Part shown: positions 4,606-9,158 of the stretch, one piece after another | Position numbering within the stretch: the first letter of the stretch is position 1 | How the letters are laid out: the number at the start of each line of letters is the position of its first letter | Origin: an uncultured Candidatus Saccharibacteria bacterium | Lineage (GTDB): Bacteria; Patescibacteriota; Doudnabacteria; UBA920 | Direction of reading: 5' to 3' | Length of the DNA: 64,000 nucleotides | Assembly (NCBI GenBank): GCA_964521955.1 | Contig: CAZFTX010000001.1 | Location: forward strand, 42,386-106,385 | Program-made: the position numbers and the translations under genes | Notes under the pieces: generated by a model | Told to the model about the DNA's origin: nothing | Database searches by the model: none | Seen by the model: the letters and a program-made list of their open reading frames with translations, nothing else

Positions 4606-4805
4606 AAGAAACCACTCCGACGTCCGCCAAAGGCGGAGTCCGGAGCCCCGATCCAAAGGCGTCGGGGCAGAGACGAAGATTACACAAATACTTCAAGATG
4701 TATTATACCAAATTTATAAAAATGATAAAAGAAAATTAGGTCGCCTTTACTTAACAACAAAGTTATGATTAAAAAACTTACCGCACCAAAGTCGAAAAAG
4801 ATGCG

Positions 4806-5852
4806 TTAGTTGAGAATATTAAAAAGCTTGATTCGCTTTCTTAGGTTTTGCGACCGACAGTGTTTTAAAACCCCGAGATAAGAACTTACTGTTTGTTTTA
4901 ATTTTTCAAGACTTATCTCTTCCCGTGTAAATTTAACAATTTTTCCATCGAGCTTTCTTAACATTCTATTTTTTGCTTTAGTTCGTAGGGACTGTCTATA
5001 AGGTAAAACTACATAGCCAAGAAAGTCTATTCCACGAGTTAGCTTATTCAAAAAAATCTTTTTAGGGTGCAGATTAAGTTTTAAATTTTCAGACAGGTAC
5101 GTTTCCATCTGGGGGATCAAGCCTTCCAGATATTTTTTATTATCGCTTACCATCACGAAATCATCTGTATAGCGTATGTAATATCTTACTTTCAGTTGAT
5201 GCTTAATAAATTTATCAAAGTTGTCGAGGTAAATGTTAGCGAATATTTGTGAAGTTAAGTTGCCAATCGGCAGTCCCTTGGCTAAATTTACTTGAAAACT
5301 ATCAATAATTTGATCAAGTAATTTCAATGCATTATGATCCGTGACCCGCCGTCGCAAGAGATCTTTGAGAATCGTATGGTCAACAGAAGCAAAAAATTTT
5401 CTAATGTCACATTTTAAGTAATAACATGGGCGGCGGTAATTCTGGCTAACTCCTTTTGTAAAGTTTTCCAAACGTTTAACCGCACGGTGAGTCCCTTTTC
5501 CGATACGGCAGGAGTAAGAATCGTAAATCAAGGTATGATCGAACAACGGGTATAAATTCCGAAAGACGGCATGATGAACAATTCTGTCACATACAGTTGC
5601 TTTGTGGATCTGGCGCAACTTAGGATCAAAGATAAGAAATGACTCATAAGGCTGGTGGGTATAAGTGTGGTTGACTAATTCATGGCGTAATTGAAAAAGG
5701 TTGTCCTCGAGGTTGCGTTCAAAATTCTGAACGTCAGGCTTACCCCGTTTACCAGCTTTAAATTCCTGCCATGACAATAATAAATTATCTAAACTAGTAA
5801 TTTGTTCAAATAATGTATGAGTTACATCCATAATGAAATTCCTATAATACAA
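4806..5852 (-). CDS. DGR-type reverse transcriptase
   Basis: 348 aa, compact for an RT. Motifs: FDPKLRQIHKATVCDRIVHHA (RT1/2), SYSCRIGKGTHRA, IRYTDDFVMVSD (YxDD catalytic) and GYVV thumb. It sits next to a cognate TR/VR. An alternative start is M8 (MDVTH, 5831). Confidence 0.9.
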   Translation of the reverse strand: MYYRNFIMDVTHTLFEQITSLDNLLLSWQEFKAGKRGKPDVQNFERNLEDNLFQLRHELVNHTYTHQPYESFLIFDPKLRQIHKATVCDRIVHHAVFRNLYPLFDHTLIYDSYSCRIGKGTHRAVKRLENFTKGVSQNYRRPCYYLKCDIRKFFASVDHTILKDLLRRRVTDHNALKLLDQIIDSFQVNLAKGLPIGNLTSQIFANIYLDNFDKFIKHQLKVRYYIRYTDDFVMVSDNKKYLEGLIPQMETYLSENLKLNLHPKKIFLNKLTRGIDFLGYVVLPYRQSLRTKAKNRMLRKLDGKIVKFTREEISLEKLKQTVSSYLGVLKHCRSQNLRKRIKLFNILN

Positions 5853-6167
5853 AAAACTTACGACCTATATAAAACAAATTACGAATATACAAAAACTTTC
5901 CCAAAAAGTGATAAATACGCCTTAGGCGAAAAATCTAAAGCAATTATTTTAGAGCTGCTAGAATTGCTAGTTGAGGCAGAAAATGCCAAGCGCGAATGGA
6001 AAGAACCAATTTTGGCAAAAGCCAGCAACAAATTAGCAGTTTTAAAACTTATGTTCCGGCTCGCCAATGAAACCAAAATCTTAGACAGCAAAAAATATTT
6101 GTCTTTAACCGACAAAAGTTTGGAAGTCGGCCGGATGCTCGGCGGCTGGCTAAAATCCGTTAAGTAG
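5817..6167 (+). CDS. avd: Avd-like accessory variability determinant (four-helix-bundle protein, TIGR02436-like)
   Basis: 116 aa and basic. Motifs FPKSDKYALGEKSKA and ...GRMLGGWLKS match the Avd / 23S-IVS four-helix-bundle family. It is encoded on the opposite strand to the RT and target, and its 5' end overlaps the RT start by 15-36 nt. Confidence 0.75.
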   Translation: MSYIHNEIPIIQKTYDLYKTNYEYTKTFPKSDKYALGEKSKAIILELLELLVEAENAKREWKEPILAKASNKLAVLKLMFRLANETKILDSKKYLSLTDKSLEVGRMLGGWLKSVK

Positions 6168-6216
6168 CCAAGGGCTCGGGTAAATCCCGAACCCTTGCGC
6201 CAAAAGAATAGACGTA

Positions 6217-6346
6217 ACGAGAAGCGACCCACGGCCGAACCGAAGTTGTGATTGGCATTATCGGTCCAGTTGTTGTCGAAGTTGAGCTTGTCATCGTTCC
6301 AGTACCAGTACAGCGAGTTGTTGAACTGGTCATCGGCATCCGGGTG
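6217..6346 (-). repeat. DGR template repeat (TR)
   Basis: About 130 bp, about 85% identical to 6746-6875. Of the 20 differences I could align, 19 sit where the TR has A on the minus strand (T on the plus strand as given). The TR reads as the Asn-rich template ...DADDQFNNSLYWYWNDDKLNFDNNWTDNANHNFGSAVGRFS. Confidence 0.85.
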
Positions 6347-6677
6347 ATTGTCTGGCTTCATCTAAAGCTGAAAAAGAAAAAATATCCTAATCCAGTCCCC
6401 AGGCCAAGCCGAGGAAAAATTTGTGGCGTCTTAAAACGCACTAAAGCCAGACAAGTAGTGTCTATCCTTTCTAAACTCACTTCTTAAAAGCAAAAGCTAT
6501 TTAAGAACTCTGGTTTAAAAAGTAAGGATTTCGGCGACCCTAATCCGTGGACAAGAGTGCATTAGCCTAATTTCCTTTTAAGTATACAGTAATTGTGGAT
6601 AACTAAAAAATTTTGCGAAGCAAGTATCAAGTATAGAAACATATGCAGAGGAAGTAATAAAATTTAAACAAAACAAA

Positions 6678-6730
6678 AGGACTTGGGAATCAAGAATCAA
6701 AAACAAATAGATTCATGATCCCAAGTCCTA
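6678..6730 (-). promoter_or_regulatory. stem-loop immediately 3' of the VR (DGR target-recognition hairpin)
   Basis: Inverted repeat aggacttggg(a)atc ... gat(c)cccaagtcct, a roughly 13-bp stem around a 25-nt AT-rich loop, about 15 nt beyond the target stop. It is absent from the TR copy. Confidence 0.6.
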
Positions 6731-6742
6731 AGTATCGAGCGA

Positions 6743-6875
6743 CTACGAGAAGCGACCCACGGCCGAACCGAAGCAGTGAAAGGCATCATCGGCCCAACCG
6801 CTGCCGAAGCCGAGCTCGTCATCGCTCCAGTACCAGAACAGCGAGTCGACGAACTGGTCATCGGCAACCGGGGCG
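6743..6875 (-). repeat. DGR variable repeat (VR) at the 3' end of the target gene, including the conserved IMH-like block
   Basis: The VR encodes ...VADDQFVDSLFWYWSDDELGFGSGWADDAFHCFGSAVGRFS*. Every TR AAC (Asn) position is a different residue in the VR. The last 27 nt (cttcggttcggccgtgggtcgcttctc on the coding strand) are identical in TR and VR and GC-rich, as expected for the conserved 3' IMH block. Homology stops there. Confidence 0.85.
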
Positions 6876-7866
6876 TAGCTGTTAGCCGGGCAGTCGATGC
6901 CTAGGTACTCGAACTTCGACATCCGGTCGGGCTGAGTAGCTATAGTGCTGCCGGTCATGATGCAGTCCTGGGGGAATTGGTTCTCCGCAAGAACGACCTT
7001 GACCCGGGACAGCCGTACCGAATGGCCGCTGTAGCTGTTGCCGGTGTTGGCACCGGCCGGAGCGAAGCAGAAGTCATCGTCCGTGGTCTCATGGAGTTTC
7101 TGCCACGTGATGATGCCTGCGGGTGTGAGCCGGACGTACTGGGCCGAAAGCTGCCCGTCGCGCCTGTTCTTGAAGCCGTGCTTGCCGAAAACCTTGCGGT
7201 AGGCCTTGCCGACTTCGGGAACGAAGTTGGCGACAACGGAGGCATAGGCTTCGCGTCCTTCGTCCGTGGTAGCGAGCGGATCGCCTTTGATGCCAAACAA
7301 CTTGGCCAGCGTGGAAAGCTTAAACCAGATCGGGATACCTTCGGTACCTTCTCCGGCCTTGGCTTCCTTGGCGAGCTTGAGGGCGGTGGCGACATTCAGC
7401 GTGGTCTTGGAGCCGAACATGTCGCGAGCGAGAGCCTGGTAGGCCGAGACATCTTCTTCCACCGGCAGGTATTTCCAGTCCGGCGGCGGCGTGAAGTGCT
7501 TTTCGGTCGAGATCTCGCCGTCGTAGAGTCCGGCAATGAACGGCCGGGCAATGGCGAAGGTTTCGGGTTGCAGGAAACAGCAAGCCTCGATCTGATCGAG
7601 CAGAACGTAAAACGGCACCTCGCTAGCCATCTGGTTGAACATGCCAGGCTCGCGGGTTTCCAAAGACAGGAACTGTCCGAGGGTTTCCGGCGTCAGCCAA
7701 GTCACTTGGAACGGCAAGCTGTCCTTGTAAGCCTGGAGAGCCTTGGCCAGTTCGGCATCAAACCGCGTGTTGTCACCTTTGTTTACGCGATCGGTTGCTT
7801 GACCGAGCGTGCGCAGGAGAGACTCCCGCTGTTCCAAAGCACCCTGATTTACAGTAGCGCTCATGA
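6743..7866 (-). CDS. DGR target (variable) protein with C-terminal VR, probably a C-type-lectin/FGE-like ligand-binding fold
   Basis: GC-rich ORF (about 57% GC against about 34% for the genome). Preferred start is the ATG at 7866, preceded by AAGGAGG. The ORF track extends to a TTG at 7996, which would add a hydrophobic leader MKLAFLLAILIAG. The C-terminal 45 aa are the VR. Confidence 0.8.
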
Positions 7867-8066
7867 TTGACCTCCTTAGTGGTCTGTTGTGTGCAAGTTG
7901 ATTTAGCCACGAGGACAAGTCCCCGAAGCTGGTTCTCACTTCCGATGAAATGAGCGTTCCGGCTATCAAAATCGCCAGCAAGAACGCTAATTTCAAAGGT
8001 TTAAAATTAGCGTATAATTATACCTGTTTTTTTAACTCCTGTCAAGGACTCCCTTTTCACAGAAAT

Positions 8067-9158
8067 TTACTTGGCAGTTTTTTCCAAATATTTTCCCACA
8101 AATTCGTCTAACTCCCCTTCTAAAACACCTTCAGGATCAGTTGACTCAAAGTTAGTTCTGTGGTCTTTAACCATTTTGTAAGGATGCAGAACGTAAGAAC
8201 GAATTTGGTTTCCCCATTCAGCGGACTTAAACTCACCCCTTAACTCAAGCTTTTCTTTTTGCAACTTTTCTTCTTCTAAAGCTTTTAATTTAGACATTAA
8301 AATTTTCATAGCCAATTCACGATTTTGATGCTGGCTTCTTTCATTTTGAATATTCACCCTTATTCCGGTTGGAATATGAGTAATGCGTATGGCCGAATAT
8401 GTTGTGTTTACACTCTGTCCCCCGTGACCAGAAGCCGTATTGGCTTCAATTTTTAAATCCTTAGGATTAACTTCAAACTTTTCTTTTTCTTCCAAAACCG
8501 GAAGTAGCTCTAAAAGCGCAAAAGAAGTCTCCCTTGTATGAGCCGGATTAAAAGGTGAAAGCCTAACCAAACGGTGCACCCCCGCTTCGCTTTTAAAAAG
8601 TCCGTAAGCAAAAGGACCTTTTACTTCCACCACTGCCGTTTTAACTCCGCCTTGTTCACCCTTTGAAAGTTCCAAAATTTCCGTGCTAAAACCTTTTTTT
8701 TCACTGTAACGCAAAAACATTCTTAAAAGCATCCCTGCCCAGTCTTGTGCATCTACCCCGCCGGCGCCACTGTGAAGGGAAAAAATTGCGCTATGGTCGT
8801 CATACTTTTTAGACAGCAAAGCCACAAAACGGTTTTTACTATACTCCTTTTCCAAAGTTTCAACTTGCTCTTGTAAATATTTTTTTGTTTCTTCTGACTC
8901 GTCTGTATTTTGCTTAACCAAATTTAAAGTTTCCTGAATATTTTTTTCTAAAGTATTCCAAAACTCTACAAATTTTTGCAGTTGGTTAAACTCCTGAGAA
9001 ATACTCTGTGCATGCGCGGAGTCGTTCCAAAAGTCAGAACCCTGCATTAAGTCTTGCAATTCCAAAGCTCTCTGCTCTTTTTGCGGCAGGTTTAAATGTG
9101 ACTTTATTTCTTCAACTTCTAAAAGTAGCTTTTCTAACTTTGAAATCAAATCTTTCAT
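8067..9158 (-). CDS. prfB: peptide chain release factor 2
   Basis: 363 aa. GGQ motif (ASGHGGQSVNTT) and the RF2-type SPF tripeptide region (RLSPFNPAHTRETSFA). Single uninterrupted ORF; no +1 frameshift site is evident. Confidence 0.85.
   Translation of the reverse strand: MKDLISKLEKLLLEVEEIKSHLNLPQKEQRALELQDLMQGSDFWNDSAHAQSISQEFNQLQKFVEFWNTLEKNIQETLNLVKQNTDESEETKKYLQEQVETLEKEYSKNRFVALLSKKYDDHSAIFSLHSGAGGVDAQDWAGMLLRMFLRYSEKKGFSTEILELSKGEQGGVKTAVVEVKGPFAYGLFKSEAGVHRLVRLSPFNPAHTRETSFALLELLPVLEEKEKFEVNPKDLKIEANTASGHGGQSVNTTYSAIRITHIPTGIRVNIQNERSQHQNRELAMKILMSKLKALEEEKLQKEKLELRGEFKSAEWGNQIRSYVLHPYKMVKDHRTNFESTDPEGVLEGELDEFVGKYLEKTAK

What the first reader, a model, noticed from the sequence alone, without database searches (positions are those of the whole stretch)
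4806..7996. Complete diversity-generating retroelement: RT, Avd, 130-bp TR and adenine-mutagenised VR in a C-terminal target domain
TR (6217-6346) and VR (6746-6875) are about 85% identical. Of the 20 differences I could align, 19 fall where the TR has an adenine on the coding (minus) strand. At protein level every TR Asn (AAC) codon corresponds to a different residue in the VR: TR ..DADDQFNNSLYWYWNDDKLNFDNNWTDNANHNFGSAVGRFS against VR ..VADDQFVDSLFWYWSDDELGFGSGWADDAFHCFGSAVGRFS. The only other cause of such a pattern is error-prone reverse transcription. Together with a compact YxDD RT and an Avd-like protein, this is a DGR that has been active recently. DGRs are known in CPR-like bacteria, but this particular cassette (target fold, gene layout) looks worth characterising.
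Basis: seen in the sequence. Interest (0 to 1): 0.88.

Follow-up and report, generated by a model that had tools for sequence, protein, structure and literature searches.

The report
Complete CPR diversity-generating retroelement with structured template RNA
This is a real and apparently intact diversity-generating retroelement of the kind already known to be common in Patescibacteria (CPR bacteria), so the cassette itself is ordinary, but its template repeat sits inside a conserved, folded RNA that I could not find described anywhere.

Summary
TR (6344..6217, minus strand) and VR (6872..6745) are 128 bp, offset 528 rather than 529. They differ at 20 positions, 19 at TR adenines (P = 3e-13). 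None of the 32 TR adenines is at a third codon position.

The RT is closest to the Bordetella phage DGR RT. Avd passes curated Pfam and NCBIfam cut-offs. The target's last ~100 residues model as a C-type lectin fold. The layout, target-TR-(avd inverted)-RT, is architecture B3, reported for 90% of CPR DGRs, so it is not new. The host is a Patescibacterium and the RT has more than 7,800 close homologues. Verdict: a new member of a known kind. "Recently active" cannot be shown.

Two things go beyond the finding:
- The ~230 nt upstream of TR (6574..6345) is a conserved structured RNA with strong covariation. It pairs with both flanks of TR, has no Rfam match, and recurs in the same position in more distant CPR DGRs with unrelated targets.
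- The target gene is 59% GC (GC3 0.75) against 36% for RT, Avd and the genome. The same contrast appears in every related and unrelated CPR DGR I examined, and I cannot explain it.

The parts
8017..8045 (-). Promoter of the target gene: TTGACA, 17 nt spacer, TATAAT
   Evidence: A 12 of 12 consensus match. Both hexamers are conserved in relatives L001, L002, L009 and L010. This is a consensus match only; transcription was not shown.
7865..8010 (-). Conserved leader of about 140 nt on the target mRNA, containing two hairpins and ending in AAGGAGG
   Evidence: Alignment A9. Conserved among the closer relatives, with at least one compensatory change. Function unknown.
6743..7864 (-). Target (variable protein) gene, 373 aa: an N-terminal helical region of about 270 aa with no known relative, followed by a C-terminal C-type lectin fold
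6745..6872 (-). Variable repeat (VR): the last 42 sense codons plus the first base of the stop codon
6678..6729 (-). Long hairpin (about 20 bp, 11-nt loop) followed by a T-run, starting 16 nt after VR. It is either the target terminator, the DGR target-site hairpin, or both
   Evidence: Conserved in L001, L002, L009, L003 and L013. Its role is inferred by analogy with the BPP-1 inverted repeat.
6581..6586 (-). TATACT, a -10-like box 6 nt upstream of the point where conservation of the RNA begins
   Evidence: Conserved as TATAMT/TATTAT in alignment A3. The generic scan reported no full promoter here. Inferred.
6345..6574 (-). Structured 5' domain of the TR-containing RNA. It comprises P1 (6567..6532), P2 with its AAACCAGAG internal loop (6525..6475), strand A (6470..6460), the invariant linker ACUAC (6459..6455), strand B (6454..6443), two small hairpins, and strand B' (6359..6348)
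   Evidence: It is more conserved than the protein genes. RNAalifold finds 23 of 49 pairs with compensatory changes. Pairing is 90.9% against 34-49% in slid controls, with 17 pairs changed on both sides against 2-7, and 0 of 500 shuffles reach the covariation score. No Rfam match. The covariance model finds it at the same position in L144 (E 5e-17), L146 and L148 (E about 3e-4).
6217..6344 (-). Template repeat (TR)
   Evidence: A TR at the same relative position, with A-specific mismatches, is present in 8 distinct related loci.
6203..6213 (-). Strand A': the flank 4 nt downstream of TR, which pairs with strand A of the 5' domain (11 bp in the window)
   Evidence: Present in the single-sequence minimum free energy fold. 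Covariation: 5 of 11 pairs changed on both sides, 82.6% paired.
6167..6201 (-). Strong stem-loop right after TR, ending at the avd stop codon. It is a candidate counterpart of the 'Avd-binding stem-loop' described downstream of TR in other DGRs
   Evidence: A different but fully compensated stem is present in 7 of the 8 loci and is absent from L003. The analogy comes from Handa et al. 2024. Inferred.
5817..6167 (+). avd (116 aa), inverted relative to the other parts. Its start codon region overlaps the RT start by 15 nt
   Evidence: Pfam bAvd 79.1 bits (cut-off 40) and NCBIfam DivGenRetAVD 81.8 bits (cut-off 80). The same 15-nt divergent overlap occurs in L002, L009, L013 and L016.
4806..5831 (-). 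DGR reverse transcriptase (341 aa)
   Evidence: RVT_1. The best solved relative is bRT, 8ub7, at E 6.7e-43. The alignment shows PIGNLTSQ and YTDD, and the residues aligned to bRT R74, I181 and Q187 are identical. More than 7,857 homologues at E<=1e-30, with named ones all Patescibacteria.

Best explanation
This is a chromosomal diversity-generating retroelement of a Patescibacterium, with the TR-(avd)-RT ('B3') layout typical of that group. Expected mechanism: an RNA of about 410 nt is transcribed from the minus strand (roughly 6574 to 6165). The RT-Avd complex copies the 128-nt TR part of it into cDNA, inserting random bases opposite template adenines. The cDNA then replaces VR at the 3' end of the target gene. 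This recodes up to 21 codons on the ligand-binding face of a C-type-lectin-fold domain, while the A-free scaffold codons and the A-free GC-rich 3' end stay fixed. Shown here: the parts and their family assignments, the adenine-specific TR/VR spectrum, the predicted fold, and the conservation of the whole arrangement in relatives. Also shown: TR is embedded in a conserved folded RNA. A 5' domain pairs through two adjacent strands, separated by an invariant ACUAC, with the flank just downstream of TR (A:A') and the flank just upstream of TR (B:B'). TR is therefore held as a closed loop, followed by a stem-loop. Inferred: that this RNA is the RT-Avd substrate, and that the 5' domain does the job done by the spacer RNA downstream of TR in the Bordetella phage element (protein binding, positioning of the start site, stopping of cDNA synthesis at the 5' end of TR). 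Also inferred: that the element is still active.
For: TR/VR: 19 of 20 differences at TR adenines, P 2.8e-13, no TR adenine at a third codon position, one VR in the window. RT: closest to bRT, with IGxxxSQ and YTDD. Avd: above curated cut-offs. Target: C-type lectin fold including a match to the DGR variable protein TvpA, and a family-wide hypervariable C-terminus. Same layout and A-specific TR/VR mismatches in relatives: 16/16, 12/13, 19/20, 16/16, 22/25, 12/12 and 22/25. Same layout in nine more distant CPR DGRs. B3 is documented as the CPR-typical architecture. RNA: covariation of the local helices and of the two long-range helices (89.6% paired against 46-57% in slid controls, 11 pairs changed on both sides against 1-6). 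About 15% of paired cells are G-U, which would be A-C mismatches on the other strand, so the folded strand is the TR-sense strand. The whole 431 nt folds with z = -5.45 and the fold contains A:A' and B:B'. Homologous domain at the same position in DGRs with unrelated targets. In the Bordetella element, RNA on both sides of TR is required, and about 300 nt upstream are needed for full retrohoming.
Against: There is no direct evidence of activity. No sister-strain or read-level VR variation could be examined, and the clusters holding this target and this RT each have a single member. The RT clade assignment rests on best-hit similarity, motifs and synteny, not on a phylogeny. The promoter and the ends of the RNA are inferred; the generic scan found no full promoter upstream of 6574. 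The RNA covariation rests on only 8 distinct sequences, 4 of them close to each other. The covariance model finds nothing in 2 of 8 testable distant DGRs and only borderline hits in 3. The priming site is unknown. The target has no signal peptide or membrane segment, so what it binds is unknown.
Confidence: 0.85

Rival explanations
1. A fossil DGR. The cassette looks intact, but it no longer diversifies the target, and the VR/TR differences are old and frozen.
For: Decay is common in this target family. L001 has only an Avd fragment and no RT. The Doudnabacteria loci keep only the last 117 aa of the RT. L011/L012 keep an Avd remnant. L006, L007, L010 and L023 have no TR nearby. All of these still show A-specific TR/VR differences or an orphan VR. 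In the L012 lineage, 13 protein variants differ outside VR but share an identical VR. P0039 is identical on 24 or more contigs.
Against: In the window every part is full length: the RT has catalytic YTDD, Avd is above the curated cut-off, TR keeps 9 Asn codons, and the RNA domain, the helices and the VR reading frame are all intact. Only one non-adenine difference has accumulated in 128 bp.
Confidence: 0.25
2. The conserved sequence upstream of TR is not part of the DGR RNA. It could be an independent small RNA, a cis-regulatory leader, or a set of DNA-level protein-binding sites.
For: No transcript data are available. Its promoter is only a -10-like box. The covariance model does not find it in all CPR DGRs.
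Against: It always sits directly against TR, on the TR-sense strand, including in DGRs with unrelated targets and different genomic neighbours. Its two central strands pair, with compensatory changes, with the two flanks of TR itself. G-U pairs argue for RNA rather than DNA, and for this strand.
Confidence: 0.12
3. TR and VR are an ordinary duplicated gene end that diverged by point mutation, and the RT is an unrelated retron, group II intron or defence reverse transcriptase.
For: NCBIfam has no DGR RT model, and its best partial hits are group II RT (139 bits) and Drt3a (84 bits).
Against: Both hits are far below their cut-offs of 300 and 200. bRT is the best solved relative by 63 bits. No group II intron or other Rfam RNA is present. 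The adenine bias has P 2.8e-13 and recurs in every related locus. Avd is adjacent.
Confidence: 0.01

Closest known systems
CPR/Patescibacteria DGRs of architecture B3, TR-(avd)-RT (Wu et al. 2018, NAR 46:11, PMC5758913; the CPR set derives from Paul et al. 2017)
   Same: Same gene order and orientations. Same host group. The target is upstream with VR at its 3' end and has no Pfam domain. The RT clade is shared with thousands of Patescibacteria RTs.
   Different: This target family (373 aa, MSAT... start, about 270 aa helical N-terminus) carries no annotation in any source. I could not check whether its VR belongs to one of that paper's 'UVR1-6' classes. That paper does not describe the RNA domain upstream of TR or the GC contrast.
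Bordetella phage BPP-1 DGR (mtd-avd-TR-brt) and its bRT-Avd-RNA complex (PDB 8ub7 series; Handa et al. 2018 PMC6182149; Handa et al. 2024 bioRxiv 10.1101/2023.10.23.563531)
   Same: RT about 40% alignable over 305 residues, with R74, I181 and Q187 conserved. Avd present. Adenine-specific TR-to-VR transfer. An A-free GC-rich 3' end of the repeat, and a hairpin after VR. RNA flanking TR on both sides forms duplexes that bracket the template.
   Different: avd is inverted and lies between TR and RT, so there is no free spacer between them. The large conserved RNA domain is 5' of TR, not 3'. Both TR flanks pair with that 5' domain rather than with a downstream spacer. The element is chromosomal, not phage-borne. 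The target is not a tail fibre and has no export signal.
RT-10 RNA motif and the other RT-1..RT-19 motifs (Weinberg et al. 2017, PMC5737381)
   Same: Conserved RNA structures next to bacterial RT genes. RT-10 lies between TR and brt in BPP-1 and was proposed to act in the DGR.
   Different: No Rfam 15 family matches window 4700-8100 at E<=1 apart from one chance miRNA hit, and none reaches gathering score. The domain here is upstream of TR.
DGR variable proteins with C-type lectin folds (Mtd, TvpA and relatives)

Membership tests
Diversity-generating retroelement | A TR/VR repeat pair whose differences fall almost only at TR adenines | tested here: met
   19 of 20 differences, P 2.8e-13.
Diversity-generating retroelement | A reverse transcriptase of the DGR clade (closest to bRT, with the [I/L]GxxxSQ motif) | tested here: met
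   bRT at E 6.7e-43 against group II RT at 1.2e-23. PIGNLTSQ and YTDD are visible in the alignment. No phylogeny or dedicated DGR RT HMM was available.
Diversity-generating retroelement | VR lies inside a protein-coding target gene, usually at its 3' end, with TR adenines at codon positions 1 and 2 | tested here: met
   VR covers the last 42 codons of the target. Of the 32 TR adenines, 0 are at position 3.
Diversity-generating retroelement | An Avd accessory protein | tested here: met
   Pfam bAvd 79.1 bits against a cut-off of 40. NCBIfam DivGenRetAVD 81.8 bits against 80.
Diversity-generating retroelement | An IMH/IMH*-like end: a GC-rich, A-free identical 3' segment, then divergence between VR and TR, with an inverted repeat after VR | tested here: met
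   29 identical A-free bases, then divergence after TCTCGT. A hairpin lies at 6729..6678. Its function was not tested.
Diversity-generating retroelement | Ongoing diversification: VR polymorphic and TR invariant among close strains or reads | not testable with these tools
   The target and RT clusters each have a single member.
DGR architecture B3 (TR-(avd)-RT) | avd on the opposite strand, between TR and RT | tested here: met
C-type lectin fold DGR variable proteins | VR forms part of a C-terminal CLec/FGE-like fold | tested here: met
Group II intron | An RT/maturase above the family cut-off, plus ribozyme domains flanking the ORF | tested here: not met
   TIGR04416 scores 139 bits against a cut-off of 300. 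No intron RNA in the Rfam scans.
Retron / defence RTs (Drt) | An RT above the family cut-off, with msr-msd RNA or effector genes | tested here: not met
   Retron St85 scores 56 against 235, Drt3a 84 against 200, Drt2 55 against 390. No retron RNA hit.
Rfam RNA families, including the RT-associated motifs | A covariance-model match at gathering score | tested here: not met
   Nothing in 4700-8100 at E<=1 except a chance miRNA hit at E 0.88. The whole window gives only one tRNA.

The most novel reading that the evidence does not exclude
In the B3-type DGRs that dominate Patescibacteria, the RNA module that surrounds the template may be arranged differently from the Bordetella paradigm. A conserved domain of about 230 nt lies 5' of TR instead of a spacer 3' of it. 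That domain clamps both TR flanks through two adjacent strands joined by an invariant ACUAC. It would then provide the RT-Avd binding surface, the stop for cDNA synthesis and possibly the priming nucleotide. This would be an undescribed RNA family and, in effect, a permuted DGR RNA. Separately, the persistent +10 to +23 point GC excess of the target genes over their own RT and avd genes may reflect an unknown constraint or process acting on DGR targets.
Probability: 0.35. Interest if true: 0.7.

Novelty: new member of a known kind. Interest (0 to 1): 0.5.

Why it matters
The cassette adds one more intact example to a very large known class, and a Pfam-less target family with a predicted C-type lectin tip. 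The more useful result is the RNA. How B3-type DGRs prime and bound cDNA synthesis is unknown. They make up most DGRs of the CPR, and in them avd is inverted and leaves no spacer between TR and RT. A conserved 5' domain that pairs with both TR flanks gives a concrete model that can be tested by mutation, and a covariance model for finding TRs in CPR genomes. If the GC contrast proves general, it would be a simple new marker of DGR targets and a puzzle about how they evolve.

Tried and rejected
1. The correct offset is 528.
2. The long ORF starting at TTG 7996, which would add a hydrophobic N-terminus, was rejected. The Shine-Dalgarno sequence and all homologues point to ATG 7864.
3. ORF 5879..6361 (160 aa, minus strand) is a read-through of TR into antisense avd, not a gene. 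Similar ORFs are called in L001 and L147.
4. An adenine-mutagenesis footprint as the cause of the target's high GC was rejected. Both A3 (0.09) and T3 (0.16) are depleted and the coding strand shows no A/T asymmetry.
5. A distance-dependent effect around VR was rejected, because GC drops sharply at the stop codon.
6. A recent swap of the target alone was rejected, because target, Avd and RT identities fall together across relatives.
7. A DNA pattern scan of viral contigs for the RNA (CGCCGAAAT...AACCAGA) returned 120 loci. None of the 80 I tested matches the covariance model, so these are chance hits.
8. The local hairpin AGAC-ACUACUU-GUCU and the helix around it, which RNAalifold drew on the truncated alignment (helices 5 and 6), compete with the long-range helices A:A' and B:B'. 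The long-range pairs have the better covariation and appear in the full-length fold. I favour them but cannot exclude alternation between the two.
9. Foldseek against the PDB gave no match for the N-terminal region. The afdb50 library was not available.
10. Paul et al. 2017 could not be read, as it is not held.
11. A second covariance model (R2) did not clearly improve detection in distant DGRs.
Full report
**1. The observation**

- TR is 6344..6217 and VR is 6872..6745, 128 bp each, with 20 mismatches.
- Nineteen mismatches are at TR adenines (13 A>G, 6 A>T). One is C>T, next to two mutated adenines.
- TR has 32 adenines. The chance of at least 19 of 20 mismatches falling on them is 2.8e-13.
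- None of the 32 adenines is at a third codon position, and all nine Asn codons are recoded in VR.
- The last 29 bases are A-free, GC-rich and identical. Right after them the two copies diverge.
- No second VR exists in the 64 kb window.

**2. The parts**

*Reverse transcriptase.* The RT (5831..4806) matches Pfam RVT_1.
- Its best solved relative is the Bordetella phage DGR RT bRT (8ub7), at E 6.7e-43. The next best, a group II intron RT, is at 1.2e-23.
- The printed alignment shows PIGNLTSQ and YTDD, and identity at the positions of bRT R74, I181 and Q187.
- NCBIfam models for group II, retron and Drt RTs all score far below their cut-offs.

*Avd.* Avd (5817..6167, plus strand) exceeds the curated cut-offs of Pfam bAvd and NCBIfam DivGenRetAVD.

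*Target.* The target (7864..6743) has no Pfam, NCBIfam or PDB sequence match.
- It has 44 homologue clusters, all unannotated. One is from Candidatus Doudnabacteria.
- The family alignment shows a conserved body and a hypervariable last ~45 residues on a fixed scaffold.
- The N-terminal ~270 residues match nothing.

*Host.* The host is a Patescibacterium. The adjacent prfB is 78% identical to Doudnabacteria and Patescibacteria proteins. The named RT homologues, among more than 7,857 at E<=1e-30, are all from CPR lineages. The flanking genes are housekeeping genes (prfB, ftsE, ftsX, tmk).

**3. Relatives**

I fetched loci encoding the target family.
- Where the downstream DNA is present and intact, the order is the same: target, about 400 nt, TR, inverted avd, RT.
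- TR/VR mismatches are again almost all at TR adenines: 16/16, 12/13, 19/20, 16/16, 22/25, 12/12 and 22/25.
- Many relatives are decayed. L001 has no RT. The Doudnabacteria loci have a C-terminal RT fragment only. L011/L012 have an Avd remnant only. L006, L007, L010 and L023 have no TR.
- In the L012 lineage, 13 protein variants differ outside VR but share an identical VR.

So TR/VR differences outlast the machinery, and they cannot date the last event in the window. The window's cassette is one of the few complete ones.

**4. The layout is known**

Wu et al. 2018 define architecture B3 as TR-(avd)-RT. [quoted passage not shown] Nine more distant RT homologues that I fetched all have this layout, with unrelated targets and A-biased TR/VR pairs.

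**5. A structured RNA around TR**

Aligning the DNA between the target stop and avd showed something unexpected. The ~230 nt upstream of TR is more conserved than the proteins. It has invariant blocks shared with loci whose target is only 44% identical.

*Local helices.*
- RNAalifold on a plain MAFFT alignment predicts 49 pairs, 23 of them with compensatory changes.
- For the 156-nt core, 90.9% of cells pair, against 34-49% when partners are slid.
- Seventeen pairs change on both sides, against 2-7 in the slid controls, and no shuffle of 500 reaches the covariation score.
- About 15% of paired cells are G-U, so the folded strand is the TR-sense strand.

*Long-range helices.* Folding the whole 431 nt (z = -5.45) adds two long-range helices.
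- Strand A (6470..6460) pairs with the flank 4 nt downstream of TR (6213..6203).
- Strand B (6454..6443) pairs with the flank 3 nt upstream of TR (6359..6348).
- A and B are separated only by an invariant ACUAC.
- Both helices covary: 89.6% paired against 46-57% slid, and 11 pairs changed on both sides against 1-6.

*After TR.* A strong stem-loop follows TR. Its sequence differs between loci but is fully compensated in 7 of the 8; L003 lacks it.

*Distribution.*
- Rfam 15 has no match.
- A covariance model of the core finds the domain in the same position in a Woykebacteria DGR whose RT is 53% identical and whose target is unrelated (79 bits, E 5e-17).
- It also finds it in two others at E about 3e-4.
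- Three more give borderline hits, and two give nothing.

*Prior literature.*
- In the Bordetella element, RNA on both sides of TR is required. The downstream spacer wraps the RT, lies on Avd, and forms duplexes with TR and with the upstream segment.
- A survey by the same authors looked only at 40 nt upstream and 100 nt downstream of TR in other DGRs.
- Weinberg et al. 2017 tied the RT-10 motif to the Bordetella spacer.
- I found no description of a 5' domain in CPR DGRs in the held literature, but Paul et al. 2017 could not be read.

My reading, which is inferred, is that in B3 elements the scaffold RNA sits 5' of TR and brackets the template from there.

**6. An unexplained compositional contrast**

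The target gene is 59% GC with GC3 0.75. RT and avd are 36% GC with GC3 0.35-0.39, neighbouring genes are 37-38%, and the VR-TR spacer is 36%.
- The same direction, +10 to +23 points, holds in all relatives.
- It also holds in eight of eight distant CPR DGRs with unrelated targets.
- It is not an adenine-only footprint, because A3 and T3 are both depleted.
- It is not a gradient around VR, because the drop at the stop codon is sharp.
- It is not a recent swap of the target, because the cassette parts co-diverge.

I have no explanation.

**7. Verdict**

This is a genuine, complete DGR, a new member of a well-populated known class, and current activity is unproven. The cassette as such deserves modest interest. 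The RNA architecture and the GC contrast are the parts worth following up.

Noticed in passing
window 6743-7864 versus 4806-6167 and flanks; also L001-L023 and L144-L152: The target gene is 59% GC (GC3 0.75), while RT, avd, the flanking genes and the intergenic spacer are 36-38% GC. The same excess of +10 to +23 points occurs in every related locus and in 8 of 8 distant CPR DGRs with unrelated targets. A3 and T3 are both depleted, and the drop at the stop codon is sharp. Unexplained.
   Followed up: partly
window 7865-8045 (minus strand): A perfect TTGACA-17-TATAAT promoter is followed by a leader of about 140 nt, containing two hairpins, upstream of the target gene. The leader is conserved in L001, L002, L009 and L010. 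It may be regulatory.
   Followed up: partly
window 5817-5831; L002, L009, L013, L016: The start codons of avd (plus strand) and RT (minus strand) face away from each other, and the two coding regions overlap by exactly 15 nt. The overlap is conserved in relatives, so each gene's promoter must lie inside the other gene.
   Followed up: no
L011/L012 lineage (proteins P0024, P0165-P0177); L003-L005, L008, L018, L019: In relatives that have lost RT or Avd, the VR is frozen. Thirteen variants that are 96-99% identical share one VR while differing elsewhere. One Doudnabacteria target protein is identical on 24 or more contigs, next to an RT reduced to its last 117 aa.
   Followed up: yes
window 8067-9158 (prfB); proteins P0192, P0193: Sister strains with 98% and 91% identical prfB exist in public assemblies. 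Yet the 90% clusters holding this target and this RT each have a single member. Either the cassette is strain-specific or it is simply not assembled in those strains.
   Followed up: no
window 5879-6361 (minus strand); L001 7526-7996; L147 84-380: An ORF that reads from just upstream of TR, through TR and into antisense avd (160 aa in the window) is an artefact of the in-frame TR. Gene callers annotate its equivalents as genes in related contigs.
   Followed up: partly
window 4613-4668 (minus strand): A GC-rich stretch with two imperfect inverted repeats (CCCCGA...TCGGGG and CTCCGGACTCCGCC...GGCGGACGTCGGAG) lies in otherwise AT-rich DNA just upstream of the ftsE start codon (4605).
   Followed up: no
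L001 and L002 flanks: The two closest complete or partial relatives sit next to phage-type integrase and TraG/TrwB-like genes. The window copy and the Doudnabacteria copies lie between housekeeping genes. The cassette therefore occurs both on mobile elements and in core chromosome contexts.
   Followed up: no
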